Source: a virus (lineage: Duplodnaviria > Heunggongvirae > Uroviricota > Caudoviricetes). Taken from it: a stretch of DNA of 64,000 bases. A program made the translations under genes and the position numbers. Location: positions 12,413-76,412 of IMG/VR virus record IMGVR_UViG_3300017766_004476. One strand, given 5' to 3'. Numbering within the stretch: position 1 is the first letter of the stretch; every line of letters starts with the position of its first letter. Under the pieces are notes generated by a model, which made no database searches, was not told where the DNA came from, and saw only the letters and a list, made by a program, of their open reading frames with translations. Of the stretch, positions 5,627 to 62,994 are shown one piece after another.

Positions 5627-5715
5627 GAGGAAACCTATTTAGCTTTGGTTCTAAATAGGTTTTATTTTAAAATGATAGTTTGATATACGAATGATTAAAA
5701 TCGATTTAGATCAAA

Positions 5716-5993: not shown

Positions 5994-6401
5994 TTAATAT
6001 TTCAATGGTGCTGAAACGACTTGTCCGTCTGGATACACAACGTCTACGTTTAATTGACCTGAATCTGCCATTTCTTGAAAATTTGGAATATTGCTCCAAG
6101 ACCATGGATCGGAACCGATTTCCTCTTCAACCACTCGTTGACGATCTCGTTTATTAGATATTGAATGTACAATCCGACTAAAGTTTGTAATCACATCACC
6201 AATAGCACCTCCAGAGTCGTACTCTTCAGGGCGTTCCGGGTCTGATTGCCGGGTATACATATGAACAATAATTTCTTCGATAGTTACAGATATAGGATTT
6301 TCTGGATTGTTATTTTGAGGATCTGGAACATTAGACATTGAAGGTCTATTTTTAAGAACCTCGTCGTATGCTTCAGAAAGCAATTCCATGTGGTGTTTCA
6401 T
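5994..6401 (-). CDS. small protein, MKHHMELLSEAY leader family
   Basis: Tandem paralog of 5716..5985. Confidence 0.55.
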   Translation of the reverse strand: MKHHMELLSEAYDEVLKNRPSMSNVPDPQNNNPENPISVTIEEIIVHMYTRQSDPERPEEYDSGGAIGDVITNFSRIVHSISNKRDRQRVVEEEIGSDPWSWSNIPNFQEMADSGQLNVDVVYPDGQVVSAPLKY

Positions 6402-6497
6402 AATATTATTTATACTAAAGAGGACGCACTCTACCTTTTGTTCTAAACGTATTTGATTGAAAGAATATACTCTGATAGTGTTTGTTAAAGAACTTAT

Positions 6498-7160
6498 TTA
6501 GATCTTATTCTCTTCAAAGGGCTTCGGAGCCGTATTTAAAGGTGTCCAGTAGTGAGTAACCCAATCTTTACTTTTGAGTAGTTTAATAAGCTTTGCCAAG
6601 AGAGGTACTGCTTCTTTAAACTGAAATCTTCCAATATGAATAGCAACATCTCTCCCCAGCTTCTGAACTTCAGTAACTGGTTGAAGCTTTTCATATGCTT
6701 GAGAATAGCGCTCACCTGCTTCTCTGACCTCTTTCCACCACTGTTCTAAAGAACCTTTATAACCGTATTCTCGGACATGATAGTTGTAGTTACTCTCAAT
6801 CTGCTGTTTAACATCCTCATCAATAGGCATCCATCCTTTACGAGGAGCAAGAGACTGATAGATTTTCTCTGCCTTTTCTAATGTGGCCCTGCGCCCATAA
6901 TGATATCCGCCACCTCCGAAATCGTGCTTTGAATCACTATAGGAACTGCGATGAATCAAATCACCACCATGTTCAAGCCAATAAAGCCATGAACCCGTCC
7001 CATGAGTAACATTAGGATTAAGGCGTTCGTTGAACATCCCCTCTGGTCCTTCCCACCGTTGCTGGTTATGAACTTTAGCAAATGCTTCTATCATCTCAGG
7101 AGTTCTATAAGGATGATCTGAACCATATACTTCATTAAAGTATTGTTTAAATTTTTCCAT
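6498..7160 (-). CDS. hypothetical protein with CTS-like leader (MEKFKQYFNEVY)
   Basis: Shared leader motif, 220 aa. Confidence 0.55.
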   Translation of the reverse strand: MEKFKQYFNEVYGSDHPYRTPEMIEAFAKVHNQQRWEGPEGMFNERLNPNVTHGTGSWLYWLEHGGDLIHRSSYSDSKHDFGGGGYHYGRRATLEKAEKIYQSLAPRKGWMPIDEDVKQQIESNYNYHVREYGYKGSLEQWWKEVREAGERYSQAYEKLQPVTEVQKLGRDVAIHIGRFQFKEAVPLLAKLIKLLKSKDWVTHYWTPLNTAPKPFEENKI

Positions 7161-8569: not shown

Positions 8570-9049
8570 TTAGTATTGAGGACGTTGCGGATCCATCTGT
8601 GAGACTGGACCATCAAAGGTTTCATATTCACCAAGTGCCTGATCATCACCATGCGGGTCAACCTGAGGAGAGGTATAGTTCTGAACCTGATGTATATCTG
8701 CAACCTCATAATAAGCAGAGGTAGCCACATGAGTAGCAACCTTTACAATATCCTCTTCTGAGAGATCAGTCTTAGGCTCAAAAAGCCATTCATGATTGTC
8801 TTCATAGATATAGGCATGTTCATCACCCTGAATAATCTTTGACACAGAAGTCCAATTAGTGTAGCTATTACGCGGATGAAAGGTAATATTAAAGCCTTCT
8901 TTAAGTTTGAAGATAAGCTGGGCAATCTCATCAGCAGACTTACCTTTAATATCAACATTTTGAGAAGCGGACATATTCTCTATGAGAAGTCGAGTCTGTT
9001 GTACCTTTATATAGGCTTTCTCAAGAAGGAACTTTTCGGTGCGGTTCAT
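8570..9049 (-). CDS. hypothetical acidic protein (159 aa)
   Basis: ORF only. Confidence 0.5.
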   Translation of the reverse strand: MNRTEKFLLEKAYIKVQQTRLLIENMSASQNVDIKGKSADEIAQLIFKLKEGFNITFHPRNSYTNWTSVSKIIQGDEHAYIYEDNHEWLFEPKTDLSEEDIVKVATHVATSAYYEVADIHQVQNYTSPQVDPHGDDQALGEYETFDGPVSQMDPQRPQY

Positions 9050-9187
9050 ATTATTATTATTTAATGATTATAAAGGCAGAACTAAAAAAGTGCAAAAAAA
9101 TTCACAAAAAATTTTTGAGAATCTTGAGAAATATAAACTGAAAGAAAGAGTGATGTTCGAGAGAATGATATTATTATAATATCATAA

Positions 9188-9688
9188 ATGAAACTATTTC
9201 AACAAGTTAAAGAGATTAGATCTCAGCAAGGAGAGTTACACTTCCAAAGGTATGCTATTATAGAGACGCATAAGTGGGCTCTCTATATTCATCGGATCTA
9301 TAAAGAAGATAAAGATGAACATTTACATAGTCATCCGTGGAACTTCATGAGTGTAATTCTGTGGGGTGCGTATATAGAACAATATGCTCCTGAGTATAAT
9401 CGGATGAGAGTAAAGTGTGAAGGATCATTCAGTAAGGCTGATCGGAACTACTTTCACAAGATCGTTGACATACTCAGGGGACCCGTAACTACGTTATTCT
9501 TTACGTGGGGAACACATCAACCATGGCATTACTGGGTTAAGGGTGAGAAAGTAGAATCAACAGAGTATCGGAAACAGAAGAATATTGCCCGGATGGCACA
9601 AGAGGTTGCACATAAGATAGATGCACAGATAGTTAAGAAGCTCCAGGAGCAGATTCCAGTACTAGAGAATCGTAAAATTTTACGATAA
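9188..9688 (+). CDS. hypothetical protein (166 aa)
   Basis: Plus-strand ORF immediately left of the island boundary. His-rich HLHSHPW segment. Confidence 0.45.
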   Translation: MKLFQQVKEIRSQQGELHFQRYAIIETHKWALYIHRIYKEDKDEHLHSHPWNFMSVILWGAYIEQYAPEYNRMRVKCEGSFSKADRNYFHKIVDILRGPVTTLFFTWGTHQPWHYWVKGEKVESTEYRKQKNIARMAQEVAHKIDAQIVKKLQEQIPVLENRKILR

Positions 9689-9921
9689 AAAAATTTCCGA
9701 GAACCGAGAACTTAAAAAGAATTTGGAAAAAAATTGGCATGGGGTCCGGATCGGAGTGCAAGCTTTTTCTATATCTAATAAATTTTCGTACTTAAGGCTT
9801 GCATTTCGCGGTGTGCTCCGATCCCCTCTCCACCTTTCGAGATGGCTGAGGCTCTCGAGAGCACACCGCTCTTAATTGTTCTAGTATCATTAAAGCTTGC
9901 CAGTTTGTTTAGATCAATGCT

Positions 9922-10179
9922 CTAGTAGCGCATAGTGACCACCTTCCTTTCTTTCACAGCATCCAATCCGGACAGCTGAGTGCACCCCTTCACTGAGGTG
10001 GCTGACCCATCCACAGCACCGCAATCAAATTGATTACCTTTACTCATCATCGGAGTAAAGTGCTCATCGCTCCAGCTCACACTCAGCTCAGCGCCCTGCA
10101 CTGCTGGGCTCCCTATCACAGGGCGCTGAGTCATGAGTATGTGTCCTGCGCTCGGTGTGATGAATATGTTCTTAATCAT
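9922..10179 (-). CDS. island gene 8, hypothetical (85 aa)
   Basis: GC-rich ORF. Promoter at 10193-10221 (TTGCAC-N17-TATAAG), 13-nt leader. Confidence 0.5.
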   Translation of the reverse strand: MIKNIFITPSAGHILMTQRPVIGSPAVQGAELSVSWSDEHFTPMMSKGNQFDCGAVDGSATSVKGCTQLSGLDAVKERKVVTMRY

Positions 10180-10192
10180 AACGTCTGCCTAT

Positions 10193-10221
10193 CTTATAGC
10201 TGCAGCCCGATTAGAGTGCAA
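10193..10221 (-). promoter_or_regulatory. island promoter TTGCAC-N17-TATAAG
   Basis: Exact hexamers and spacing. One of 8 copies. Confidence 0.5.
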
Positions 10222-10230
10222 CCGTTTTGT

Positions 10231-10626
10231 TTACTTTACTTCAACAGCCTCAACGAGCGGACCGTTCTGGTTGCCCACGCACCACATAATCCAAGCCCCA
10301 GCAATGGTGCGTGCGCGGAGCTCCCAACCGTTCGACATCGCAGCCAAGTAGCCGCAAATCCAATCTGGACGGAACGACTGGCGGATGCTCTCAGGCGTCA
10401 AGCCATATTCGTATGCAGAGAGCTCGATGCGCTCCAATCCGAACTCGTTGAAGTGATACGATGCCTCGCCTGCATAGATGTGTACATCGTTTCGCTTATC
10501 AATCTCGATGGTCACATCGCCGGGTGCCTCGATGACTTGCTTCATCGTTGCGCGACGCTCTGCGCAGGCTTCAGCAGTTAGCGCTTCAGGGTTGGTGATG
10601 GTCGTGAGCTTGAATTTATATTTCAT
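10231..10626 (-). CDS. island gene 7, hypothetical (131 aa)
   Basis: GC-rich ORF. The -10 CATACT lies 6 nt before the ATG, predicting a leaderless mRNA. Confidence 0.55.
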   Translation of the reverse strand: MKYKFKLTTITNPEALTAEACAERRATMKQVIEAPGDVTIEIDKRNDVHIYAGEASYHFNEFGLERIELSAYEYGLTPESIRQSFRPDWICGYLAAMSNGWELRARTIAGAWIMWCVGNQNGPLVEAVEVK

Positions 10627-10632
10627 AGATGC

Positions 10633-10661
10633 AGTATGGCTCTTTTTCGGAGGGAGTGCAA
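10633..10661 (-). promoter_or_regulatory. island promoter TTGCAC-N17-CATACT
   Basis: Exact hexamers and spacing. Confidence 0.5.
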
Positions 10662-10910
10662 CTACTTTGTGGGGCGCGGCAGGCTCGGAGGAATCGTCAG
10701 GAGGCTCCGACTCGTGATGTTCATGATGCCCACCACCGGCACCTGCTCTACCAAATTGGGAATGATTGCTTGCACTCCGCAGATGAAATGGAACTCAGCA
10801 TCGCGGCCTGCCTTGCCCTTCGGCCACCCCTTCTTGTCGAGGAGCTGGAGCTCGGTGAGGTGCTTAAGGAGCATTGCGTGTAGTTCGTCGAATGTGATGT
10901 TCTTTATCAT
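10662..10910 (-). CDS. island gene 6, hypothetical (82 aa)
   Basis: Same architecture. Promoter at 10917-10945. Confidence 0.5.
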   Translation of the reverse strand: MIKNITFDELHAMLLKHLTELQLLDKKGWPKGKAGRDAEFHFICGVQAIIPNLVEQVPVVGIMNITSRSLLTIPPSLPRPTK

Positions 10911-10916
10911 GTCAAT

Positions 10917-10945
10917 AGTATGGTTGATTTCTCGTTCTAGTGCAA
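10917..10945 (-). promoter_or_regulatory. island promoter TTGCAC-N17-CATACT
   Basis: Exact hexamers, 6 nt to the ATG. Confidence 0.5.
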
Positions 10946-11158
10946 CTACTCATTCCGAAATCGTGCCACAATGTTGTCCAAGTCAACACCCCGCATCACG
11001 TCCAATCCGCAATGGGTGCTCGGATGCAAGCGCTTATTGTCCAATGCGCACACATCCTTCATCCGCTGGTGCAGCTCCGGCTTGAGCACTTTGGCCCAGC
11101 TTGCGATGTGCTCTTCTTGGATTTTGATTCCTTCCGCAACTGTGAACTTAATTTTCAT
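10946..11158 (-). CDS. island gene 5, hypothetical (70 aa)
   Basis: Same architecture. Promoter at 11165-11193. Confidence 0.5.
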   Translation of the reverse strand: MKIKFTVAEGIKIQEEHIASWAKVLKPELHQRMKDVCALDNKRLHPSTHCGLDVMRGVDLDNIVARFRNE

Positions 11159-11164
11159 ACAGTC

Positions 11165-11193
11165 AGTATGGCTCTAAATTTGTTTCTGTGCAA
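11165..11193 (-). promoter_or_regulatory. island promoter TTGCAC-N17-CATACT
   Basis: Exact hexamers, 6 nt to the ATG. Confidence 0.5.
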
Positions 11194-11312
11194 CTACTTT
11201 TCCGAATTCTTTTCAGCGCCTACGCTCGAGAGAATGCACTCCCTCGCACACCGCAATAGCCCTAAGCGCTGAAAGGAACTCGGAGGGGCTGCCTCCGAGT
11301 AGTGTAAAGGCT

Positions 11313-11591
11313 TTAGGCCGCAGAGGCAACAGCTTTCTTCCGCACGGCGCGCTTCTTCGGAGCCGGAGCCTCGGGCTCAACCGCTTTGGGAGCCGGAGCC
11401 GCCACGAGCTTCGCCTGCTTGGGCTCGCGCTTGGCCCGCTCGTTGAGCCAGCGGAACGTGGGGGTGTGCAGAACGGCCGGATAGGTTCCGTTGCTCTGCG
11501 CCTGAGCGATGAGCTGGTTGACCGCATCGGTCGCGCTGAGCTCTTTGCGCTTGACGCGCTCCTTGTAGCTGTGATGCATTGTTGTCTTCAT
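11313..11591 (-). CDS. island gene 4: small basic protein with Ala/Pro/Lys-rich histone-H1-like tail (AAPAPKAVEPEAPAPKKRAVRKKAVASAA)
   Basis: Start at MKTTMHH. Promoter at 11635-11663 (TTGCAC-N17-TAATAT), 44-nt leader. Confidence 0.5.
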   Translation of the reverse strand: MKTTMHHSYKERVKRKELSATDAVNQLIAQAQSNGTYPAVLHTPTFRWLNERAKREPKQAKLVAAPAPKAVEPEAPAPKKRAVRKKAVASAA

Positions 11592-11634
11592 ATGTTTTTG
11601 TTTCCGACAGTAATCGTTATTGATTACAAAAAAG

Positions 11635-11663
11635 ATATTAGCTGTTTCCCGTGGGCAGTGCAA
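11635..11663 (-). promoter_or_regulatory. island promoter TTGCAC-N17-TAATAT
   Basis: Exact spacing. Confidence 0.45.
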
Positions 11664-11669
11664 CTCTTT

Positions 11670-11960
11670 TTAGAGTTTAATTACAACTACTTCCGCAATA
11701 TAGTGCTTGCCCGTCCCGTGCTGTTTGCCGAATATAGAGAACACCCAGCCGGAGATCTCGTCGTTCATATCCCGCATCCAGGAAACTTCTTCCGCCTGGA
11801 GCTGCTCGTCGTCGGGCAATGCATCGACGTACGCATTGATTGCAGCCATCTCGTGCGAGGGCTCGGGCCTCCGGTCCACCGCATCGTAGTGCTGGCCCCG
11901 GAGGCTGGGCGTATCGAAGTAGTTCTTAATCGTTATCCGGACCGCATATTTCATTTTCAT
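11670..11960 (-). CDS. island gene 3, hypothetical (~96 aa)
   Basis: Start placed at the second ATG so the -10 (CACACT, 11967-11972) lies 6 nt upstream, as in its siblings. Confidence 0.5.
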   Translation of the reverse strand: MKMKYAVRITIKNYFDTPSLRGQHYDAVDRRPEPSHEMAAINAYVDALPDDEQLQAEEVSWMRDMNDEISGWVFSIFGKQHGTGKHYIAEVVVIKL

Positions 11961-11966
11961 ACTCAT

Positions 11967-11995
11967 AGTGTGGCTCCGTTTCTAGTTCTGTGCAA
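11967..11995 (-). promoter_or_regulatory. island promoter TTGCAC-N17-CACACT
   Basis: Exact spacing. Confidence 0.45.
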
Positions 11996-11998
11996 CTA

Positions 11999-12370
11999 TT
12001 AATTGTAGAAATGTTTCCGAATTACAGAGTTGCCTTCGATGGTGAGAACGACTTCAATACAGCACTCGCTGTCTTCCGAATTCTGATACATGACCCAGCA
12101 GCCCGGAGTGTGCCACCCGCTGACCGTATTCTTATCCTTATCGCGCCAGAACACCACCCCCGACAGCTCTCCTTGTGGAATGTCGAGCTTTTCCGCCACC
12201 TCGATACACAAGTTGCCGATATCAGCTTCCATCCCCATCCCATCCTTGCCGAATCCGATAGGCTGAGCATAGACGGGACCACGGCCCAGCCATTGGCTGA
12301 AGCACATCCACAATTTGCTATCGTCGATGTAGTCAATCATCTTCCGGTCAATTGTCGTATCATTTATCAT
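11999..12370 (-). CDS. island gene 2, hypothetical (~123 aa)
   Basis: The -10 CATACT (12377-12382) sits inside the longest ORF, so the start is moved to the Met 6 nt downstream (MINDTT…). Confidence 0.5.
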   Translation of the reverse strand: MINDTTIDRKMIDYIDDSKLWMCFSQWLGRGPVYAQPIGFGKDGMGMEADIGNLCIEVAEKLDIPQGELSGVVFWRDKDKNTVSGWHTPGCWVMYQNSEDSECCIEVVLTIEGNSVIRKHFYN

Positions 12371-12376
12371 ACCCAG

Positions 12377-12405
12377 AGTATGGCTCATCCGCAGGAGCAG
12401 TGCAA
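12377..12405 (-). promoter_or_regulatory. island promoter TTGCAC-N17-CATACT
   Basis: Exact spacing. Confidence 0.5.
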
Positions 12406-12447
12406 CAATTTTCTAAAATATATTTCACGGCCCACCCGAATTTTTGC

Positions 12448-12476
12448 TTGCACATTCCCGAATTTTTCTTTATAAT
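12448..12476 (+). promoter_or_regulatory. plus-strand island promoter P1 (TTGCAC-N17-TATAAT)
   Basis: Consensus-like hexamers. Transcript would start GGGATTGGACCCCTCG. Confidence 0.5.
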
Positions 12477-12527
12477 GGGATTGGACCCCTCGTTACTTTA
12501 CTTTACAAAGAAAGCCCGAATAATGTA

Positions 12528-12556
12528 TTGCACTGCTAAAAAGAAACCGCTATAAT
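12528..12556 (+). promoter_or_regulatory. plus-strand island promoter P2 (TTGCAC-N17-TATAAT)
   Basis: Tandem copy of P1. Transcript would start GGGTCTGGACCTCTCG. Confidence 0.5.
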
Positions 12557-12562
12557 GGGTCT

Positions 12563-12668
12563 GGACCTCTCGTCGCTCGGCCTCCCGCACATAGGGAAAG
12601 GGAGATTATCGCTCCCTCTCGGTGTGAAAAGCCAGCTCCAAATCCTTTTCTTTTCTGCTGGCTTTTTA
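12563..12668 (+). ncRNA. candidate small non-coding RNA (~105 nt from P2, ~185 nt from P1) ending at an intrinsic terminator
   Basis: Promoter, then internal hairpin AGGGAGattatcgcTCCCT, then terminator AAAGCCAGC…GCTGGCTTT + TTTAT (12627-12668). No plausible ORF or SD. Confidence 0.4.
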
Positions 12669-12728
12669 TCAAGGAGAGTGCGACACTCTCGTCGAATGTC
12701 GCACTCTGTGAACTTTCAGACTTGCCTT

Positions 12729-13265
12729 TTAGCCGTTCGCTTCGACCGGCTGCTCAGCGATGTTTTCGACTTGGGGCTGGCCTTCCGGAGCCGGAGTGGG
12801 CTCGGGCGTCGCACCTTCCGGGGCCTGCGCAGCCTTTTTGCTGGCCTTCTTCGCGGCGGGCTTGGTCTTCTTGGCTTCCTTCGCAGCGCGCGCTTCCGCA
12901 GCCTTCGCAGCGCCATCGGACGGGGCGTTCGTCTTCATCTTCCCGTTCAGCTCGAACAGCTTGGCGATGAGCTTTTCCGGATTGGTGCTTGCCATCTTGT
13001 GCATCTCGAACTCCTGGGCCTTCTTGCCCGCGCGCTTGCGCACTTCCTCAATCGTCGCGCCCTTCCGCAGGTCGCTCAGCACGTTCTTGGGAACGTAGAA
13101 TTCGACGATTTCGTCGACCTCAACCTTGCGCCCGAGAATCTCGGAGCGACCCTTGGCCTTGTCGGCGAGGTAGTTGGCGTTGGTATTGCGGGAAGCACCG
13201 GTCAAGCAGCAGACGAGCTGCGGGCACTTCGATTTGGATTCGTTCTTTTTTGCTTTGCGAGCCAT
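12729..13265 (-). CDS. island gene 1: Lys-rich basic protein with AKKxAAK/PEP-rich C-terminal tail (histone-H1/AlgP-like tail)
   Basis: Start at MARKAKK. Promoter at 13335-13363 (TTGCAC-N17-TATCTT) with ~70-nt leader. The antisense 336-aa plus ORF is low-complexity and rejected. Confidence 0.55.
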   Translation of the reverse strand: MARKAKKNESKSKCPQLVCCLTGASRNTNANYLADKAKGRSEILGRKVEVDEIVEFYVPKNVLSDLRKGATIEEVRKRAGKKAQEFEMHKMASTNPEKLIAKLFELNGKMKTNAPSDGAAKAAEARAAKEAKKTKPAAKKASKKAAQAPEGATPEPTPAPEGQPQVENIAEQPVEANG

Positions 13266-13334
13266 ATGTTTGGTTCTTTCTATTTGTTGTTGTTTGTTTG
13301 CTTTACTACTATTCAGCACTTAGCTGATGTTGAT

Positions 13335-13363
13335 AAGATATGTTCTATTTTCGTTCTGTGCAA
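13335..13363 (-). promoter_or_regulatory. island promoter TTGCAC-N17-TATCTT
   Basis: Exact spacing. Confidence 0.4.
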
Positions 13364-13513
13364 CTTTATTTTGAACTTTTTTTCACTTTTGTTTAGCTTA
13401 GTGTTTCTTATCTACATCGTGCGCAAGCACTTTCTTATGCACCAATCTATATGCTTATTAATAACTAGCAAGAAAAATCTGAATAAAAAGTTCACGAAAT
13501 CCCGAATAAAAGC

Positions 13514-13541
13514 TTGCATCCCGGAGAAATATCGCTATAAT
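13514..13541 (+). promoter_or_regulatory. sigma70-like promoter TTGCAT-N16-TATAAT driving a 12-codon ORF and a structured RNA
   Basis: Followed by a perfect SD AAGGAG (13554-13559) and ATG at 13565 (MLRMRSAHDKRS*, 13565-13603). Confidence 0.45.
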
Positions 13542-13708
13542 ATGTTCTCTTTTAAGGAGTTCTAATGTTGAGAATGAGATCCGCTCATGATAAGAGATCT
13601 TAATCGGATCAGATTAGGGATGGGGCTCTGGGTTGCGGAGTGCAGATGTGGATAAGGTCTGAGGCCTCCCGGCTGCGGATCTGGCTCCGGTCCGGATGCA
13701 GCTCGGCA

Positions 13709-13785
13709 TTCAGGGAACGCGCTCTGCAGAGAAATCAGATTTACTTGAATGATTTTTGATTTCTCTGCAGAGCGCGTTCCCTGAA
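13709..13785. repeat. 29-bp perfect inverted repeat (arms 13709-13737 and 13757-13785) with a 19-nt loop
   Basis: TTCAGGGAACGCGCTCTGCAGAGAAATCA / TGATTTCTCTGCAGAGCGCGTTCCCTGAA, exact reverse complements. Confidence 0.9.
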
Positions 13786-14283
13786 AGAACACAGCGCGCC
13801 CGAATAAAAGCTTGATTATCCCTATAATGCGAGAACACTGTGCACTTTAATGATTCTCTGAGGCCTTTGTTCTAAGTCGTAAAGGTATGAATCACTGTGT
13901 TTGTATATGAAATGAAACAAACCTATTTAGAACAAAAGCTACATAGGGATCCGCAGGGGTTAAAAGATATGTCTGACTCGGTAGATATGTAATGAAGAGG
14001 AAGCGCTGAGGAGAGCCTGGCGGGGCAGAGAGTTCTGATACGTGTGTACGCGGTTCTGATAACGTGACGCGGGTATCAGATTGAGACGGGGCTAATAGAT
14101 AGGCCCCGCGAGGTTCTGAATATGAGGGTTCTTTAAACTATCTGAAGGATTACGGATTATAAGAGAGCTACCGGACCGAATAATGCGGATCGGTAGAGGC
14201 TTATAGGGCTCGGAAGGAGTCCGGAATATCTAGAGTTGAGAAAGTTGGAAAAAAATTATCCGGATCCGGGTACCTTTATACGC

Positions 14284-14359
14284 GACCAATTTTCCACTCT
14301 CTTCAGATCACCAATTCTCTTGAGTATTCTCATCCACTCTCTTCAGATCACCAATTCTC
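14284..14359. repeat. 27-bp direct repeat x2 (CCACTCTCTTCAGATCACCAATTCTCT)
   Basis: Two copies separated by ~22 nt, just outside the island's right boundary. Confidence 0.8.
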
Positions 14360-14391
14360 TCAAGCAGTCTCTGCCTCCTTATTTCTCTCCA

Positions 14392-14435
14392 TAAAAAATC
14401 CCATTACTAGATCTATCTCAATTTCTAGTAATGGG
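14392..14435 (-). terminator. rho-independent terminator downstream of 14456..14767
   Basis: CCCATTACTAGA…TCTAGTAATGGG hairpin followed by TTTTTT on the minus strand. Confidence 0.6.
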
Positions 14436-14455
14436 AAGAGTAAAAGACTCGATCT

Positions 14456-14767
14456 TTATTCTATATACTTCCAGAGTATATCGTAAATACGTCTCAGGTC
14501 CTTCTTAACCTCATTAGTTATCACTCCGTTCTCGTCAGGGTACTTCTTGTTTATGTGTTCTATTCCTATTAAGCATTCATGAGCCATCATACTGAAGTTC
14601 ATCCGTGCTTCATCCTTTCTTTGCTCTTCAGGAGTCATCTCAGGATGTACCGGCTTAGGTACTAGTGTTGCCTGATCTTTCATCTCTTTAGGGAAGATGT
14701 CGGGAGGAGTAGGAGAGGTTATCTGATCGTATGCCTCTGCCAAGAGTTGGGTGTCTTTATTCTTCAT
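14456..14767 (-). CDS. small protein, MKNKDTQLLAEAY leader family
   Basis: Leader family member. Its 5' ~40 nt repeats in the next two loci. Confidence 0.5.
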   Translation of the reverse strand: MKNKDTQLLAEAYDQITSPTPPDIFPKEMKDQATLVPKPVHPEMTPEEQRKDEARMNFSMMAHECLIGIEHINKKYPDENGVITNEVKKDLRRIYDILWKYIE

Positions 14768-15006
14768 GGTCGTTCATCTCCATCTACCCGGAGAAGGGTT
14801 AACAGCTTATGTGCTAAGTCCGCCTCTTCAGGAGTGAGACCTTCTTTCACATCTTTAACATATGACAGCTCCCCCATAAGGCTGTCAATTAACATATGTG
14901 ACTCTTCTTTGGGGTTTAATTTTATGAGAGTTGCTTTGGGGCCTTTAGGCTTATTAACTTTACCTTCATATGCCTCTGCCAAGAGTTGGGTGTCTTTATT
15001 CTTCAT
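14764..15006 (-). CDS. small protein, MKNKDTQLLAEAY leader family
   Basis: Tandem paralog. Confidence 0.5.
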   Translation of the reverse strand: MKNKDTQLLAEAYEGKVNKPKGPKATLIKLNPKEESHMLIDSLMGELSYVKDVKEGLTPEEADLAHKLLTLLRVDGDERP

Positions 15007-21746: not shown

Positions 21747-21913
21747 AATATTATTACACCTTATAGGTATAATCATTTAGAACCTATGAGGCCTTTGTTC
21801 TAAATGAGTTTTATTTCATTCATGATGTGTGATAGTGTTTTTAAATTGTGCTACTTAGATCAAATTCTCTATTTTTCACTATTAGACGTGTAGAGTGTAC
21901 CTAAAAAAGAAAG

Positions 21914-22027
21914 TGCCGGTGGAGGGATTCGAACTTAGCTTGTACTTCGCTACCGCTGCTCGTGCACGAGCCAGCGCCTCTCTACCTAGTTTATCAAACT
22001 AGCGCTCTGCCATTAAGCTACACCGGA
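21914..22027 (-). tRNA. tRNA-Ile(GAU)-like gene interrupted by a ~42-nt palindromic insertion inside the T-stem
   Basis: Acceptor, D-arm (GCTT/AATGGCA/GAGC), anticodon arm (CTAGT-TTGATAA-ACTAG) and T-loop TTCGAAT are canonical. An extra 21935-21976 segment (contains GCTCGTGCACGAGC) separates the T-stem 5' half from the loop. Confidence 0.5.
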
Positions 22028-24135: not shown

Positions 24136-24705
24136 TCAATTACTTTTTTTGATTAGCAAATTCTTGCGCCGATTAAACTCACTCAAGAAAGATTCAAAGG
24201 AATATTGAGTTTCTTCTGCAAGCTTCTCAATAGATTTTGCAAAACACATCTTCTGTTGGGTTGTAGTTTTACCTCTGTGCTCTTCAATCATATAACCAAA
24301 TCCATCTAAAAACCAAGCAGCATCTGCAAAATCTTCAACACCTTCATCAATACCAAATTTATGATGCAAATTTAATTGAAACGCCCATACACGGCGCTCT
24401 CTTTCAATATGATACGGCTTTTGAAATTCAATAAACGTTTGCCCTAATAGATGTTGAGGACGTGGATACTTTAATCCCCATCCATCCTTAACCATTCTAC
24501 TCTCATCAATTTCTACAAAGTGGGAAATTTCGTGAAGTACATTAGATAGTGTCGCTTCGGGACCAGCCCAGGGCCCAATCTTTATTTTCTTTTTGAAAAC
24601 AGTCTGACCCTGTAACTTTGGGTCATATTCAATTGGAGCAAGGAAGTTCGTTATCCATTGAGCTTCTTTATCTGTTACTTTATTTTCATAAATCATAATA
24701 TCCAA
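24136..24705 (-). CDS. hypothetical protein with HExxH (HEISH) metallopeptidase-like motif
   Basis: Single motif. Confidence 0.45.
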   Translation of the reverse strand: MDIMIYENKVTDKEAQWITNFLAPIEYDPKLQGQTVFKKKIKIGPWAGPEATLSNVLHEISHFVEIDESRMVKDGWGLKYPRPQHLLGQTFIEFQKPYHIERERRVWAFQLNLHHKFGIDEGVEDFADAAWFLDGFGYMIEEHRGKTTTQQKMCFAKSIEKLAEETQYSFESFLSEFNRRKNLLIKKSN

Positions 24706-25183
24706 AAAAAATTAGAAATTGACATCAACCGCTAAGTATTCGACACACGCAGAGAATTACCTACTGGTGCTGCTCATCAATTTCTAAAAAATGGTACGGT
24801 CTGCGAGGACTTACACCTGCTACTATCAAGAGCTACCAATCGAGATTATCTAGAAATCTCAACAATTCACTCAAGCTGTTCTATTACTATTAAACTTAGA
24901 CCGAAAAGTGGTGAGTGAGGCAGGATTTCTACCTGCATTGCGTGCCTCTGGTTATTCACCGATACGCTACTCACCCACAAAGTTACAATCCAAATGCATT
25001 CTTAGACGCCCAGTCGTAAGCTTCATCTTTAGACAGCCCTAAAGATTCACCATACTCTGTCCAGCTCACAACTCGGTTAAAAATATTTTCAAGTGCATTC
25101 ATATCTCAACTTTCAATGTGATTAATATATGTGAAATCTATGGATGTTAAAGTGTTTATTTAGGTTAATTCGAACCCGTACAG

Positions 25184-26029
25184 TTGTTTTATAGTTTTAT
25201 AATAAATAATTGTATGAATAAAGATGAGGTACAAGAGCAAATTAATAGATTTAAGACCACAAATACTGGTAAATTTAAAAGCCTTCTATTTGATAACAAT
25301 TTGAAGCTAGTAATGTGTGAAGAGTGTAAAGTGACAGATACATATAATTCTAAACCAATAACTCTACAACTTCATCATATTGACGGAAATAATCAAAACA
25401 ATCATATTGACAATTTTCAGATATTATGCCCTAATTGTCATTCACAAACTAAAACATTTAGAGCCCCTAAAAGGGTAACAGACGATCAAATTTTAGCAGC
25501 TGCAAATAATTCTAAAACAATATCAGAAATTATTAAAAAGCTTGGAAAATATGCAAGTGGGGGTATTTATAAACGTATTGAAAAGGTTATTTTAGAGCAT
25601 AAATTGCCTATTACTAAGTATGATTATACGTCTAATAGAGCTATAGGATTTAAAAAGCCTCGAGGTAGAAAGCCTACAGGTTTGACACTAAAGACACATA
25701 TATGTAAGCATTGTAATTTAGAATTTAAACATACACACAAACGAACATATTGCTCATCAAAGTGCACCCATGATGCAGCATGTAAGTATAATATTGATGT
25801 TCAATCTGCAATTCCACTCATTAAAAAATTTGGATGGAGTCAAGCCGCAGTAAAATTAAATATCAATACAAAATGTCCTGATGTTACTCTCCGCTTAGCT
25901 GTTAAGCGCCATATAAAGTATATCGACCCAACACTTGACCTTCATGAATTATCTAAATTCAGTCATCATTCTAGATACATATATGACAAAGAAACTCGAC
26001 AGAGAATAGATAAATCTCTGTCGAGTTAA
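25184..26029 (+). mobile_element. free-standing HNH homing endonuclease (Mob-like), adjacent to a tRNA gene
   Basis: CEEC…HHIDGN…NxQILCPNCH HNH core. Sole plus-strand gene in a minus-strand block. Probable start at 25214. Confidence 0.75.
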
Positions 26030-26031
26030 CT

Positions 26032-26121
26032 TGGTACCACAGACTGGACTTGAACCAGCACACTGGGTTAAACCAGCTAGGGATTTTAAATCCCTTGCGT
26101 CTGCCATTTCGCCACTGTGGC
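26032..26121 (-). tRNA. tRNA-Leu(UAA), type II with long variable arm, CCA encoded
   Basis: Acceptor GCCACAG/CTGTGGT, anticodon loop TTTAAAA, variable hairpin CTGG…CCAG, T-arm GCTGG-TTCAAGT-CCAGT, 3' ACCA. Confidence 0.75.
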
Positions 26122-26544
26122 AACTAAAGCCTACCACTATAGCTTTCGCTACCCTATCTCGCTATGCACAGAATCACCTTTCGGGTATCTGCTACACTCT
26201 GAGAATTAGTTTGTGGTCTGGACTATGCCTTTACCTTTTTATTGTGAACGCTCAGCACATCAAGCTGAATATGTCCAACCGTAGTAATGTTTTATCGATA
26301 TTTATTTATCGATAGCAACGAGCGTCATTCTCGTAACAACTCCGAAGAGGGTAGGTTTAACCTCTCGTTCACAATAAGTTAAGGTAGGTGATTATAGTCT
26401 CTACACGTCTCGAATTATGAGGCTATAGAATTTATCGCAATTAAGCGGCTAGACGGGGAGCCTAGCAATCGTGGTAGGTCGCTAGGCGCCTATTCTTCCA
26501 CAATCCTTTCTTCTATTATTTCTTTCACGTTTGCCTTCGATTTC

Positions 26545-26770
26545 GCTCGGCGTTGGGTTGTTGGTAGGACTTGAACCTACAATATGTGCGTCTATTCAGA
26601 GTTATATCACACAACGGCAGTCTTCGCTATATCTCTTGTAGCTACAAACTCCCAGATTTGCCATTCTCTACAACGAGCCGTTCACCGAATTTACACCTTA
26701 CTAACTACCTCTTTCGAGATAGCCGACCCTTATGAGTCTGCTGCGTCTGCCATTTCGCCACTAGCCCATT
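26545..26770 (-). other. tRNA-derived fragments: orphan T-arm/acceptor 3' half (26545-26580) and a 20-nt duplicate of the tRNA-Leu 5' region (26741-26765)
   Basis: GTAGGTTCAAGTCCTAC T-arm without a matching 5' acceptor. GTGGCGAAATGGCAGACGCA is identical to tRNA-Leu positions 7-26. Confidence 0.4.
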
Positions 26771-27589
26771 TTAAGAATGAGATGCGCTGTGCATCCAATT
26801 AAATTAGTAAATCAGCTAACGAGTCGCTATGTCGAATCAAATTTACTAATCTAATTACATCATTGCCATTCTTAAATTAAACAAATTGTTAGATAGGATC
26901 ATCCTATATGAGTTGCTCTATTCAGCATTGCTGCTGACTTCACACAGCGCATGAAGTATTACATCTTATGGTCGAGTAGACTCTACCAGCTATTAGGTAT
27001 TTGCGTCTTCCGTTCCGCCACTCAACAACTTGTTTAAATTTTCAAAGAACAATATTAAAAGTATCAACTGGGACGAGTTTCGAGCATATGTAATACCTAG
27101 CTAGGGTTGACAATATCCTCACAATATAGGTGTGGGATATCGATGCGTTATGCAATCATACAATACGTTACTTCCCAGATACGCGCTCTGGCTCACTGAG
27201 GCACACAGTCAAATGCGCAGTAACTATATTACTTAACTCTATTTTATCCGCTTCTTCGAACTCAATGTTCGCGGACCCAGTCAAATTGTTAAAGATCAAT
27301 ATTAAAAAAGATACTAAGTTGCTTTAGTATTTGATATATCTAATTACGTGGCGAACAGTTAAACTAAGCGAAACACGCCACCCGAAACGATAGAAACTAC
27401 TCAGTTTTTCGATGAATAAATTAGTCAACAATTTATTCAATATTAGATATTAAAGATCAAAACCGTAAATTTACTGAAAGAATCCCATCATTAATACGTC
27501 TCTCACTCTTGGTGATGGCCTCGTTCCATCTCTCAGTGTTATTATATTAATTTCTTTCTCTAGAAGTTAAAGTGTTTATTCAGCTTTTA

Positions 27590-30578: not shown

Positions 30579-30871
30579 AAATTAATAGGTGTTACTAGGC
30601 GCCCAACCCAAGATGCTTATGGCTTGCCTTTCGGGAATCTACTCAGCAATGCATCTAAAAACTTTCGGGAATCTACTCGTTGAACCTAATCATTATTTCA
30701 TAGCTGATTATCGCTAACGAATTAAAATATAAGATGTCTGTGAAAATATTAAAGCTTTTATTTAGAACATTTATCTCTGGCTTTTGTTCTAAGTGGTTCA
30801 TTTTATCAAATACATCTTTGTATATAAATTATAAACAAATTGATTAGAACAAAAGCTCTAATGAGCAAACA

Positions 30872-31226: not shown

Positions 31227-31340
31227 ATATTAGATTAATATCTAAGTTTACAATAATGATTATATATGAACGCGTCACTTATTGCAACATGTTTATTAGA
31301 ACAAAAGCTAAATAATATTTACACACAGGAATAAAGAGAT

Positions 31341-37417: not shown

Positions 37418-37533
37418 AAAGGTTTTTATTATAGTGTTCTAATTGTCGAGCTTTTGTTCTAAGAGAGTTTCTTTTATAATATGAGTAGCGAGTGTGATTG
37501 AAAATTGAACTACTTAGAACAAATGCTATAAGG

Positions 37534-51791: not shown

Positions 51792-51943
51792 TACGTTGTT
51801 AAATTAATAGTTAGAGAGTGATAAATCAAAGTAATATATAGCTTTTATCATATGTTCTAAATGGGAAGCTTTTGTTCTAAAAGGGGTTGATACAATTTAC
51901 ATATATCAACCCCTGTGAATTTTTAACTCATTTAGATCAAATG

Positions 51944-54741: not shown

Positions 54742-54846
54742 AGTTTTTATCTGAACCTTTCTATGTCTTTGTTTGTTAGGAGTATTATCTTATATCTAAC
54801 TACTAACACTATTATTTATAAATGATAATTGAGATAATTCAAATTT

Positions 54847-55395
54847 TTATTTAGACTCATTTAACTTCTTGAGAGCTTCATTAATACAATTCCATTGCTC
54901 TGGAGTAACTATAATTTGATTAAATTGAGTAGAGAGTTCTACCTTATCCTGATGTACCACAGCTATACCTCCTCCGAATTTTATGGTTACTGGGTCAGGA
55001 ATTCGTGCAAGTGCTACAGCCTCTCTAACAGCTTTAATCCAGTTATCCCACTCTGTGACAGCATCAAACATCTGTAAATCCTTAACTTTATGTTTATGAT
55101 CATAAATTTTAGAATCATATGATGCGTACGAACTATACATTAGTGAGACTGTACTAGATGAAATGTTATGTATATAGATTAGCTTCGTATCAGAGCAATA
55201 TGGACCGGTAATACTTTCATCAAACCCGAGCCATTTACAACCTAGCCTAAGTAACGCCTTCTCAACTTCTCTATATACTATTTCATGAAGAGGCTTAGGT
55301 ATTGCTGATAGTGAGATGAGTATAAGGGGTGTTAGCTTAGTCGTCATATGTTTATTAAGATTTGTCTTTGAGTTCAAATTTACAACCCACTTCAC
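54847..55395 (-). CDS. hypothetical protein (182 aa)
   Basis: ORF. Confidence 0.5.
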   Translation of the reverse strand: MKWVVNLNSKTNLNKHMTTKLTPLILISLSAIPKPLHEIVYREVEKALLRLGCKWLGFDESITGPYCSDTKLIYIHNISSSTVSLMYSSYASYDSKIYDHKHKVKDLQMFDAVTEWDNWIKAVREAVALARIPDPVTIKFGGGIAVVHQDKVELSTQFNQIIVTPEQWNCINEALKKLNESK

Positions 55396-62930: not shown

Positions 62931-62994
62931 TGTTCTAAACAATTTTGATTTGAAATAATAATTACACACTCATTAATTAAACAACCCGTTTAGA

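What the first reader, a model, noticed from the sequence alone, without database searches (positions are those of the whole stretch)
13514..13830. Promoter + perfect SD + 12-codon ORF feeding into a 29-bp perfect palindrome
A TTGCAT-N16-TATAAT promoter at 13514-13541 is followed by AAGGAG and then 5 nt later an ATG. The ORF is MLRMRSAHDKRS*. About 100 nt downstream lies a 29-bp perfect inverted repeat (13709-13737 / 13757-13785) with a 19-nt loop. A second copy of the 5' promoter segment, CCCGAATAAAAGCTTG, follows at about 13799. A third, CCCGAATAA, lies at 12525. The layout resembles a leader-peptide attenuator, an RNase III processing site, or a protein-binding palindrome such as an origin or partition site.
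Basis: seen in the sequence. Interest (0 to 1): 0.6.

Follow-up and report, generated by a model that had tools for sequence, protein, structure and literature searches.

The report
Phage promoter aimed at perfect hairpin
In a 1.2-kb gene-free gap of an uncultured freshwater giant-phage genome, a genuine promoter points at a unique 29-bp perfect hairpin; the "ribosome site plus 12-codon gene" is a chance look-alike, there is no attenuator, and the stretch most likely makes a non-coding RNA, though a DNA-level role cannot be excluded.

Summary
The sequence features are all present, within 1 nt. The promoter is real. It belongs to a family, C(G)GAAT-N6-TTGCAY-N16/17-(T/C)ATA(A/C)T. A core pattern for that family matches 7 times against 0.17 expected, and every match lies in the 52%-GC island at 9067-12556. 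On the minus strand these promoters sit exactly 6 nt before the ATG of five genes, which implies leaderless mRNAs.

The "perfect SD + 12-codon ORF" is at chance level (3 matches against 4.3 expected), and about 60 genes here lack SD sequences. The attenuator reading fails. The next plus-strand ORF of at least 120 aa starts at 25184, the hairpin has no U-tract, and no competing structure comes close to it.

The 29-bp palindrome is far beyond chance and unique in the window. It was not found in viral or genome collections. Its only relative is a 99.4%-identical variant contig, which is uninformative.

The "second promoter copy" at 13799 is the same promoter with 11 nt missing from its spacer. 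A copy of a phage-wide 77-nt inverted-repeat element follows it.

Plus-strand G-skew, better plus-strand folding and two A-U to G-U changes favour a plus-strand non-coding RNA with the palindrome as an RNase III or 3'-end hairpin (about 0.4). A DNA cis-element (about 0.3) and a template-switch by-product (about 0.2) remain open. Interest is modest.

The parts
13501..13541 (+). Promoter P3: CGAAT box (CCCGAAT 13501-07), N6, -35 TTGCAT 13514-19, N16, -10 TATAAT 13536-41. The predicted start is about 13548.
   Evidence: Sequence. It has the same architecture as P1, P2 and the minus-strand island promoters. A core pattern for that family matches 7 times against 0.17 expected, all inside 9067-12556. 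P3 itself carries TTGCAT and is not one of those 7 matches.
13554..13603 (+). SD-like AAGGAG (13554-59) plus a 12-codon ORF (13565-13603). Judged spurious.
   Evidence: AAGGAG-N4-9-ATG gives 3 matches against 4.34 expected. About 60 phage genes lack SD sequences. GTTCTAA at 13559-65 is a recurrent phage motif.
13709..13785 (.). 29-bp perfect inverted repeat (13709-37 and 13757-85) with an AT-rich 19-nt loop. Each arm contains the 10-bp sub-palindrome CTCTGCAGAG.
   Evidence: The RNA hairpin alone folds at -58 kcal/mol. It is unchanged in variant contig L005.
13799..13828 (+). 'P4': a copy of P3 (CCCGAATAAAAGCTTG ... TATCCCTATAAT) with 11 nt missing from the spacer. TTG and TATAAT are only 5-8 nt apart, so it is probably not an active sigma-70-type promoter.
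   Evidence: D6, D11.
13856..13946 (+). One copy of the phage-wide 77-nt inverted-repeat cassette: GCCTTTGTTCTAA, exactly N51, TTAGAACAAAAGC. Here it is in plus orientation.
   Evidence: It is 80% identical over 79 nt, in plus orientation, to the copy downstream of a 778-aa ORF in L077/L078.
13950..14290 (+). G-rich, hairpin-rich non-coding stretch. It is the candidate body of a plus-strand structured RNA.
   Evidence: GC skew is +0.3 to +0.4. The stretch 13835-14400 folds at -179.6 kcal/mol (z -3.7) on the plus strand and -150.4 (z -2.1) on the minus strand. The 120-nt windows give z -2.4 to -3.2 on the plus strand. The L005 changes at 14125 and 14232 turn A-U pairs into G-U pairs. No ORF is longer than 52 aa.
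14293..14371 (.). Two tandem 40-nt repeats (28 nt exact), pyrimidine-rich on the plus strand.
14399..14436 (-). Intrinsic terminator of the minus-strand 103-aa gene: a 13-bp stem followed by T6 on the minus strand. It marks the right border of the gene-free region.
13335..13363 (-). The 178-aa gene's (12729-13265) own promoter: TTGCAC 13363-58, N17, TATCTT 13340-35. The region to its right is therefore not needed to express that gene.
12435..12556 (+). Sister plus-strand promoters P1 (TTGCAC 12448, TATAAT 12471-76) and P2 (TTGCAC 12528, TATAAT 12551-56), each with a CCCGAAT box. Both are followed by GGGNNTGGACCYCTCGT and run into the bidirectional terminator at 12627-12668.

Best explanation
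The gap 13364-14395 is a plus-strand non-coding transcription unit. It lies at the edge of a higher-GC island whose genes are otherwise read from the minus strand as leaderless mRNAs.

P3 is a working member of the island's promoter family and has a consensus -10. It starts an RNA near 13548. About 160 nt later the RNA folds into the 29-bp perfect hairpin. That hairpin lacks a U-tract, so it is not a classical terminator. A 29-bp perfect duplex is an ideal RNase III substrate. It would form a processed, hairpin-protected 3' end for the short P3 RNA, or separate that RNA from the downstream G-rich structured part (13950-14290).

The 77-nt cassette at 13856-13946 may also promote the downstream part. 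Elsewhere in this phage that cassette precedes gene starts.

The AAGGAG/ATG mini-ORF is not translated for any purpose, and there is no attenuation.

What is shown: the promoter family, the absence of coding capacity, the hairpin, and the strand asymmetry of composition and folding. What is inferred: transcription itself, RNase III cleavage, and any function of the RNA.
For: - Promoter family: TTGCACN{16,18}YATAMT gives 7 matches against 0.17 expected, all in 9067-12556. Five minus-strand copies lie exactly N6 before an ATG.
- P1-P3 share the CGAAT-N6-TTGCAY-N16/17 layout and carry a consensus TATAAT.
- No credible ORF exists on either strand in 13266-14455, and the 2-nt indel in L005 would break the longest one.
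- The 178-aa gene has its own promoter at 13335-63, and the upstream minus-strand gene terminates at 14399-14436. The gap is therefore not a minus-strand UTR.
- Plus-strand GC skew is +0.3 to +0.45, against a negative background.
- The stretch 13835-14400 folds at -179.6 kcal/mol (z -3.7) on the plus strand and -150.4 (z -2.1) on the minus strand. Windows across 13960-14260 give z -2.4 to -3.2 on the plus strand.
- Two of the three L005 substitutions there hit predicted A-U pairs and give G-U. That is tolerated only on the plus strand.
- The cassette copy at 13856-13946 is in plus orientation.
- The requirement of RNase III for about 20 bp or more of duplex is established knowledge.
Against: - There are no transcription data.
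- No homolog more distant than 99.4% exists, so there is no covariation test.
- The stem is 29/29 Watson-Crick with no G-U pair. That looks more like DNA-level symmetry or a recent template switch than a long-selected RNA helix.
- The segment between P3 and the hairpin folds no better than shuffles (z about 0.2).
- Rfam gives only generic miRNA-precursor look-alikes, all below their gathering scores.
- Plus-strand transcripts have no evident terminator and would run antisense into the minus-strand genes.
- The two G-U-compatible substitutions are weak evidence, because A-to-G transitions are the commonest change.
Confidence: 0.4

Rival explanations
1. DNA-level cis-acting region. The candidates are a replication origin, or a T5-type untranslated repeat region next to host-promoter-driven early genes (an injection-stop or other protein-binding site). 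In this reading the palindrome acts as duplex, cruciform or single-strand DNA, and the promoters give transcriptional activation.
For: - It is the largest gene-free gap in the window that holds no called gene at all. The larger minus-ORF-free stretch at 24697-27589 holds a plus-strand ORF and a tRNA.
- The stem is perfect Watson-Crick with an AT-rich centre.
- An AT-rich block (30-34% GC) lies next to it at 13250-13550.
- GATC occurs 11 times in 13578-14451 against 2.56 per kb in the window.
- GCGGATC/GATCCGC occurs 4 times, GTTCTGA 3 times, and there are two 40-nt tandem repeats.
- 6-bp palindromes are about twice as frequent as the window mean.
- One perfect DnaA box lies at 13647-55.
- T5 has a comparable 1.2-1.66-kb untranslated region full of repeats and palindromes beside its pre-early genes (bioRxiv 10.1101/866236).
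Against: - There is only one DnaA box, and the window-wide count is at chance (5 against 7.6 expected).
- There is no clear set of three or more iterons.
- None of the neighbouring ORFs that were scanned matched any Pfam or PHROG family, so no recognisable initiator, Par or terminase gene was seen.
- There is no GC-skew or gene-orientation switch at the site.
- A 19-nt asymmetric spacer disfavours cruciform extrusion and dimer-symmetric binding.
- No half-site recurs elsewhere in the 64 kb.
Confidence: 0.3
2. No dedicated function. The gap would be decaying debris of a hypervariable early region: a duplicated promoter, one copy crippled by an 11-nt deletion, plus a palindrome made or perfected recently by replication template switching (quasi-palindrome correction).
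For: - P4 is P3 with an 11-nt spacer deletion.
- The only variant differs just left of the palindrome by a cluster of substitutions plus a 2-nt indel. That cluster creates a new small hairpin, GGCAC-CTG-GTGCC, which is a template-switch signature.
- A terminator loop is exactly flipped between L077 and L078.
- Neighbouring genes show duplication/deletion and mosaic replacement between variants.
- The locus is an orphan in every database searched.
- Perfect stems are expected for young palindromes.
Against: - P3 keeps a perfect -10 and correct spacing.
- In a densely packed phage genome a 1-kb useless gap is unusual.
- The plus-strand folding and composition bias of 13950-14290 need an explanation.
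- The palindrome and the whole gap are retained in both available variants, although these are nearly identical.
Confidence: 0.2
3. Leader-peptide transcription attenuator. Translation of the 12-codon ORF would control formation of the hairpin and so control read-through into downstream genes.
For: - The order promoter, SD-like site, short ORF, hairpin exists.
- An 11-bp alternative pairing between 13633-43 and the left arm can form in the nascent RNA.
Against: - No plus-strand ORF of at least 120 aa starts before 25184.
- No U-tract follows the stem.
- The hairpin at -58 kcal/mol dwarfs the alternative. The whole RNA folds at -115.1 kcal/mol, against -70.8 when the hairpin is forbidden.
- The ORF stops 30 nt before the alternative helix.
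- SD sequences are not used in this genome, and the motif is at chance frequency.
Confidence: 0.02
4. Minus-strand element. The palindrome would lie in a long 5' leader or regulatory RNA read leftward from a promoter near 13815-13845 towards the 178-aa gene.
For: - There is a weak minus-strand match, TGCACA-N18-GATAAT, at 13844-13815.
- The palindrome folds equally well on either strand.
Against: - The spacing is off by 1-2 nt from the island rule TTGCAC-N17.
- The 178-aa gene has its own well-formed promoter at 13335-63.
- The minus strand folds much worse outside the palindrome, and its composition is C-rich.
- The adjacent cassette copy is in plus orientation.
Confidence: 0.05

Closest known systems
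RNase III processing hairpins in phage early transcripts (T7 R0.3-R1.3 sites downstream of the tandem A1-A3 host promoters; lambda sib and N-leader sites). From established knowledge.
   Same: Strong host-type promoters, several in tandem (P1, P2, P3), feed into a long double-stranded hairpin that has no U-tract. The duplex is longer than two helical turns.
   Different: - T7 and lambda sites are imperfect, with internal loops, and they lie between protein-coding genes of the same strand. Here the stem is perfect, no coding gene follows, and all neighbouring genes are on the other strand.
- Cleavage is untested.
- There is no sequence similarity.
Phage T5 untranslated Repeat Region 3 / injection stop signal region (bioRxiv 10.1101/866236).
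   Same: [quoted passage not shown]
   Different: - T5's region has eight ordered DnaA boxes, lies in a terminal repeat and is conserved across T5-like phages. Here there is one DnaA box, the genome position is unknown, and no relatives exist to test conservation.
- There is no sequence similarity.
Origins that pair promoters with an AT-rich unwinding element (T7 phi1.1A/B origin, T4 oriF/oriG R-loop origins, ColE1 RNA II). From established knowledge.
   Same: Promoter(s) lie next to an AT-rich block, and a structured transcript could prime or activate replication.
   Different: - Here the AT-rich block lies upstream of P3, not downstream of it.
- There is no evidence of a persistent RNA-DNA hybrid.
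- There is no skew switch.
Trp/His-type leader-peptide attenuators.
   Same: Only the linear order promoter, short ORF, hairpin.
   Different: There are no regulated genes, no U-tract, no balanced alternative hairpins, no regulatory codon run, and no functional SD context.

Membership tests
Leader-peptide transcription attenuator | Structural genes downstream on the same strand | tested here: not met
   The next plus-strand ORF of at least 120 aa starts at 25184. All neighbouring genes are on the minus strand.
Leader-peptide transcription attenuator | Terminator hairpin followed by a U-tract | tested here: not met
   The stem is followed by AAGAACACAGCGCG. The terminator scan reports nothing there.
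Leader-peptide transcription attenuator | Competing antiterminator of comparable stability that overlaps the leader ORF | tested here: not met
   The best alternative is an 11-bp helix that begins 30 nt after the stop codon. The whole RNA folds at -115.1 kcal/mol, against -70.8 when the hairpin is forbidden.
Leader-peptide transcription attenuator | Translated leader ORF with a functional ribosome-binding site | tested here: not met
   AAGGAG-N4-9-ATG gives 3 matches against 4.34 expected. The phage's genes lack SD sequences, and the island genes are leaderless.
RNase III substrate | At least about 20 bp of continuous double-stranded RNA | tested here: met
   29 perfect pairs, -58 kcal/mol as RNA.
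RNase III substrate | The region is transcribed and cleaved in vivo | not testable with these tools
   No expression data are available. Transcription is inferred only from the upstream P3 promoter.
Intrinsic (Rho-independent) terminator | GC-rich stem with a short loop, followed by a U-run | tested here: not met
   The loop is 19 nt and no T-run follows on either strand. Genuine terminators nearby do have T-runs, at 12627-68 and 14399-14436.
Replication origin (DnaA-box or iteron type) | Cluster of initiator binding sites (at least 3-4 DnaA boxes or iterons) | tested here: inconclusive
   There is one DnaA box, at 13647-55, and the window count is at chance. Short repeats are present: GCGGATC 4 times, GTTCTGA 3 times, a 40-nt repeat twice. 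None forms a regular array.
Replication origin (DnaA-box or iteron type) | Adjacent AT-rich unwinding element | tested here: met
   13250-13550 is 30-34% GC, against 38-60% around it.
Replication origin (DnaA-box or iteron type) | Strand-skew or gene-orientation switch, or an adjacent initiator gene | tested here: not met
   Cumulative skew keeps falling across the site, and genes are on the minus strand on both sides. The neighbouring ORFs that were scanned have no Pfam or PHROG hits.
T5-type injection-stop / Repeat Region 3 | Ordered set of eight DnaA boxes inside large inverted repeats, conserved among relatives, in a terminal repeat | tested here: not met
   There is one DnaA box. No relatives exist to test conservation. 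The position relative to the genome ends is unknown.
parS centromere | Palindromic or iterated sites next to parA/parB genes | tested here: not met
   The neighbouring ORFs that were scanned matched no Pfam or PHROG family, so no ParA or ParB was seen. The palindrome is single-copy.
Any Rfam RNA family | Score at or above the family gathering threshold | tested here: not met
   Only the tRNA family passes in the window. At E up to 10, the stretch 12300-14500 gives only miRNA-precursor look-alikes at 19-45 bits, against gathering scores of 47-100.

The most novel reading that the evidence does not exclude
The gap would encode a previously undescribed structured non-coding RNA of about 0.3-0.85 kb in a giant freshwater phage. 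The RNA would be expressed from both a host-type early promoter (P3) and a phage-type cassette promoter, and processed at a perfect 29-bp hairpin. Its role would be in takeover or anti-defence, as part of an early island whose protein genes are all leaderless.
Probability: 0.15. Interest if true: 0.55.

Novelty: new member of a known kind. Interest (0 to 1): 0.3.

Why it matters
If the plus-strand RNA is real, it would add a new non-coding RNA locus to giant-phage biology, where such RNAs are barely charted. It would also give a clean, testable case of promoter, then RNase III hairpin, then structured RNA.

The context found on the way is at least as useful as the finding itself. The first item is an island-specific promoter family whose -10 box sits exactly 6 nt before the start codon of five genes, which implies leaderless early mRNAs in a genome that lacks Shine-Dalgarno sites. 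The second is a phage-wide 77-nt inverted-repeat cassette with an invariant 51-nt spacer. Both give handles on how this uncultured phage organises transcription.

As it stands, the finding is an orphan regulatory region with an unresolved function. It is not a new mechanism.

Tried and rejected
**Searches for relatives of the locus**
- BLAST of 12300-14500 against phage and plasmid records gave nothing relevant.
- The palindrome arm gave 0 hits in viral contigs and genome contigs.
- The 16-mer CCCGAATAAAAGCTTG gave 4 unrelated viral hits.
- The P1-P3 promoter pattern gave one unrelated high-GC hit in viral contigs. In metagenome contigs it gave 39 loci, about the number I estimated for chance. 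Only the known variant contig is related.
- Flanking proteins gave nothing useful. The 178-aa protein has no close homolog and only 15 remote, uncharacterised ones. The 103-aa protein gave only N-terminal chance-like hits.
- Relatives found through the RNA ligase are 33-38% identical and share none of the motifs. The TTAGAACAAARGC hit examined in those loci (L062) lies in coding-looking sequence.

**Other tests that led nowhere**
- No Pfam or PHROG family matched any of the island and flanking ORFs scanned, apart from one sub-threshold Strep_his_triad hit on ORF 8570-9049.
- Single-sequence AlphaFold of the 178-aa protein gave pLDDT 48 and was unusable.
- A test for trans-pairing of the putative RNAs with 5' ends of island mRNAs gave 2 of 36 comparisons at z < -2.5, through implausible looped duplexes. 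Rejected.
- Homology between the palindrome arm and the cassette arm is not significant: 13 of 500 shuffles reached the score.
- Half-sites of the palindrome do not recur elsewhere in the window.
- A type III toxin-antitoxin (ToxI-like) reading of the 40-nt tandem repeats was rejected: there are only two copies and no toxin ORF follows.
- CRISPR was rejected because the spacer is only 12 nt. Retron and DGR were rejected because no large ORFs lie nearby.
- A multiple-cloning-site artefact was considered because of the BamHI/KpnI/XbaI/PstI/HindIII sites. It was rejected because the 6-bp palindrome density ties with other window regions and because the sequence recurs in two independent data sets.
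Full report
**1. What the window is**

The 64-kb window has about 38% GC. It is packed with small genes that lie almost all on the minus strand. It encodes NAMPT, a T4-type RNA ligase, an SPFH protein and, per the precomputed Pfam hit on contig L011, an ART-PolyVal protein. NAMPT's best relatives, at 41-46% identity, are jumbo and mega-phages. No phage or plasmid record is similar at the DNA level.

The same sequence occurs at 100% identity in a Logan assembly of SRR10520205 (L011). It also occurs at 99.4% identity in a 4.5-kb contig of JGI metagenome 3300017747 (L005 = L023). The source therefore looks like an uncultured large phage, which I take to be from freshwater. The stretch 10.0-13.3 kb stands out at about 52% GC.

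**2. The observation**

- Promoter: CCCGAAT 13501-07, TTGCAT 13514-19, N16, TATAAT 13536-41.
- SD-like site and mini-ORF: AAGGAG 13554-59, ATG 13565-67, with a 12-codon ORF running to 13603.
- Palindrome: a 29-bp perfect inverted repeat at 13709-37 and 13757-85, with a 19-nt loop.
- Repeats: an exact second CCCGAATAAAAGCTTG at 13799-13814, and CCCGAATAA at 12515.

The palindrome is far beyond chance. An arm 19-mer with up to 3 mismatches is expected 0.00 times. As DNA it folds with z = -11.3, and as RNA the hairpin alone reaches -58 kcal/mol. It is the only long perfect inverted repeat in the window.

**3. The promoter is genuine and belongs to a local family**

The 70 nt upstream of about 60 genes show that the island genes share TTGCAC-N17-(C/T)ATA(C/A)T. 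The pattern TTGCACN{16,18}YATAMT occurs 7 times against 0.17 expected, and every match lies in 9067-12556.

On the minus strand the -10 box ends exactly 6 nt before the ATG at 10626, 10910 and 11158. The same spacing holds at 12370 and 11960, which are internal Met codons of the mechanically listed ORFs. At that spacing, transcription should start at the A of the ATG, which makes these mRNAs leaderless.

Several members also carry a C(G)GAAT box 6 nt upstream of the -35 element. P1 (12448), P2 (12528) and P3 (13514) are the plus-strand members of this family and have a consensus TATAAT. P3 is therefore a real promoter of a real class. By contrast, the CCCGAAT word alone is not enriched.

**4. 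The SD and the 12-codon ORF are not meaningful**

Almost none of the phage's genes has an SD sequence. AAGGAG-N4-9-ATG occurs 3 times in the window against 4.3 expected. The 'spacer' is part of GTTCTAA, a motif that recurs throughout the phage. No credible ORF exists on either strand between 13266 and 14455. The L005 variant also carries a 2-nt indel that would break the longest one.

**5. The attenuator idea fails**

- The next plus-strand ORF of at least 120 aa begins at 25184.
- The hairpin is followed by AAGAACACAGCG, not by a U-tract.
- The only alternative pairing is an 11-bp helix that starts 30 nt after the mini-ORF's stop codon.
- Forbidding the hairpin costs 44 kcal/mol.

**6. Anatomy of the gap**

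- The 178-aa gene on the left (12729-13265, minus strand) has its own family promoter at 13363-13335 and a CAA-rich leader.
- The 103-aa gene on the right ends in a clear minus-strand terminator at 14436-14399.
- The stretch 13364-14395 is therefore not needed for minus-strand expression.

From left to right the gap contains:
- an AT-rich block, 13250-13550, at 30-34% GC;
- P3;
- the palindrome;
- 'P4';
- a 77-nt inverted-repeat cassette, 13863-13939;
- a G-rich, hairpin-rich stretch, 13950-14290;
- two 40-nt tandem repeats, 14293-14371.

P4 shares both CCCGAATAAAAGCTTG and TATC(G/C)CTATAAT with P3 but lacks 11 nt of the spacer. Its TTG and TATAAT are therefore far too close for a sigma-70-type promoter.

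**7. A phage-wide cassette found on the way**

The motif TTAGAACAAARGC occurs 18 times with up to 2 mismatches, against 4.4 expected. The pair TCTAA...TTAGA occurs 12 times against 4.75 expected, and in nine of these the spacer is exactly 51 nt.

In the copies where I traced the downstream sequence, the cassette lies 32-78 nt before a gene start that carries a TATAAATA-like box. A viral-contig scan with this pattern found the same cassette downstream of a 778-aa ORF that I read as a tail-sheath gene, in two contigs from the same lake series (L077 and L078). That copy is 80% identical over 79 nt to the one at 13866-13941, in plus orientation.

The copy inside the gap is therefore oriented like P3. 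By analogy it may promote rightward transcription.

L077 and L078 also carry their own 23-bp perfect palindrome in that cassette. A terminator loop is exactly flipped between the two contigs.

**8. Evidence on strand and level**

- GC skew on the plus strand reaches +0.3 to +0.45 in 13550-13700 and 13900-14250, against a negative background.
- The stretch 13835-14400 folds at -179.6 kcal/mol (z = -3.7) on the plus strand and -150.4 (z = -2.1) on the minus strand.
- The 120-nt windows across 13960-14260 give z = -2.4 to -3.2 on the plus strand.
- Of the three L005 substitutions in this stretch, two (14125 and 14232, both A to G) fall on predicted A-U pairs and give G-U. That is acceptable only for a plus-strand RNA. 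This is weak evidence, but it points the same way.
- Against a structured P3 leader, 13548-13708 folds no better than shuffles.
- Rfam finds nothing real.

**9. Evidence for a DNA-level role**

- The stem has no G-U pair or mismatch, and its centre is AT-rich.
- GATC is about five times enriched, with 11 sites in about 870 nt.
- GCGGATC/GATCCGC occurs 4 times and GTTCTGA 3 times.
- 6-bp palindromes are about twice the window mean.
- One perfect DnaA box lies at 13647-55, but DnaA boxes are at chance in the window.
- No skew or orientation switch, initiator gene or par gene is visible.

Phage T5 offers a precedent. It has a 1.2-1.66-kb untranslated region of repeats and palindromes beside its pre-early genes (10.1101/866236). 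T5's defining DnaA-box array is absent here.

**10. Evidence for a by-product**

The only differences between the variants near the palindrome form a tight cluster at 13686-13696. The cluster consists of several substitutions plus a 2-nt insertion, and it creates a new hairpin, GGCAC-CTG-GTGCC. Together with the flipped loop in L077/L078, this shows that template switching at hairpins is active in this population. Template switching can make or perfect palindromes in one step. The surrounding genes also show duplication/deletion (14768-14965) and mosaic replacement beyond 15337.

**11. Comparative dead end**

Nothing beyond the 99.4% variant turned up in any of the following:
- viral, metagenome and genome scans with the palindrome, the 16-mer, the promoter pattern and the cassette;
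- searches with both flanking proteins and the RNA ligase.

In that variant the 77-nt palindrome is unchanged. About 0.4 changes would be expected over that length, so this says nothing.

**12. Verdict**

The promoter is real and can now be placed in a family. The SD/mini-ORF and the attenuator are rejected.

My confidence in each reading is as follows:

| Reading | Confidence |
|---|---|
| Plus-strand non-coding unit, with the palindrome as an RNase III or 3'-end-forming hairpin | about 0.4 |
| DNA cis-element (origin-like or T5-like) | about 0.3 |
| Recent template-switch by-product in a hypervariable region | about 0.2 |

Interest is modest, at 0.3. The region is an orphan regulatory region of a known general kind. 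The more notable results are contextual: the leaderless-promoter island and the N51 cassette.

Noticed in passing
window 9067-13541 (promoters at 9067-95, 10633-61, 10917-45, 11165-93, 11967-95, 12377-405, 13335-63 on the minus strand; 12448-76, 12528-56, 13514-41 on the plus strand): The island has its own promoter family, TTGCAC-N17-(C/T)ATA(C/A)T, with 7 matches against 0.17 expected. The -10 box ends exactly 6 nt before the ATG of five minus-strand genes, which implies leaderless mRNAs. Two listed ORFs (11999-12388 and 11670-11966) therefore probably start at internal Met codons (12370 and 11960).
   Followed up: partly
whole window, about 60 minus-strand gene starts: Virtually no gene has a Shine-Dalgarno sequence. 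Many have an A-rich upstream region, or a TATAAT/TATAAATA-like box 6-15 nt upstream of the ATG. This suggests a host that does not rely on SD sequences, such as a Bacteroidota-like or leaderless-tolerant host.
   Followed up: partly
window 5642-5710, 6434-6502, 13863-13939, 21791-21859, 30780-30856, 37450-37526, 51868-51944, 54795-54855, 62926-62994 (and 31241-31300 with N50); L077 6269-6341; L078 12289-12361: This is a phage-wide 77-nt cassette: inverted arms (GC)WTTTGWTCTAA and TTAGAACAAARGC separated by exactly 51 nt. In the copies I traced it lies 32-78 nt upstream of a gene start. In some copies an arm doubles as the U-tract of the preceding terminator. It is probably a promoter/operator or terminator-promoter module for a phage-encoded factor.
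   Followed up: partly
L077 6318-6340/6353-6375 and 6237-6273; L078 12257-12293: A second long perfect palindrome (23-bp arms, 12-nt loop, with TTAGAAC/GTTCTAA at the inner ends) lies downstream of a 778-aa ORF that I read as a tail-sheath gene. The loop of the neighbouring terminator hairpin is exactly reverse-complemented between the two contigs (ATGATTAAT against ATTAATCAT), a hairpin flip.
   Followed up: no
window 13686-13696 vs L005: A cluster of four substitutions plus a 2-nt insertion lies just left of the palindrome in the variant contig. It creates a new small hairpin, GGCAC-CTG-GTGCC, and improves a quasi-palindrome around CTGCAG. This looks like a template-switch mutation.
   Followed up: partly
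window 12482-12668 (+): P1 and P2 are 80 nt apart and share the first transcribed bases, GGGNNTGGACCYCTCGT. They would give non-coding RNAs of about 105 and 185 nt that end at a bidirectional terminator (12627-12668), convergent with the 178-aa gene. There is no Rfam match.
   Followed up: partly
window 13578-14451: GATC occurs 11 times in about 870 nt, against 2.56 per kb in the window. GCGGATC/GATCCGC occurs 4 times. 6-bp palindromes (BamHI, KpnI, XbaI, PstI x2, HindIII x2, BspEI x3, StuI x2, BglII x2 sites) are about twice the window mean.
   Followed up: partly
window 14456-15006 vs L005: Two tandem paralogous small genes (103 aa and 80 aa) both start MKNKDTQLLAEAY. The variant contig lacks 14768-14965, a deletion between 35-nt direct repeats at 14727 and 14966. 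Left of 15337 the variant carries entirely different genes, which indicates a mosaic, hypervariable region.
   Followed up: partly
window 12729-13265 (-): The 178-aa basic protein, with a Lys/Ala/Pro-rich tail, is encoded divergently from P3. It belongs to a small uncharacterised family with an invariant L-x-C-x2-TG-x2-R ... Y-x3-KA core (consensus PKLxCxxTGxxRxTNxxYLxxKA). Sixteen proteins, including the query itself, match at E up to 1e-3 among 1.8 billion representatives. There is no informative Pfam or PDB match.
   Followed up: partly
window 21914-22027 (-) and 26032-26121 (-): Rfam calls a second tRNA-like element of 114 nt at 36 bits that ARAGORN does not report. It may be an intron-containing or degenerate tRNA. 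It lies next to a copy of the TTAGAAC cassette. tRNA-Leu(TAA) lies at 26032-26121.
   Followed up: no
window 9809-9871 (+): An 11-bp perfect GC-rich stem, GCGGTGTGCTC...GAGCACACCGC, with a structured interior lies in the 230-bp gap after the only nearby plus-strand gene (9188-9688). It may be a terminator or another small structured RNA at the left edge of the island.
   Followed up: no
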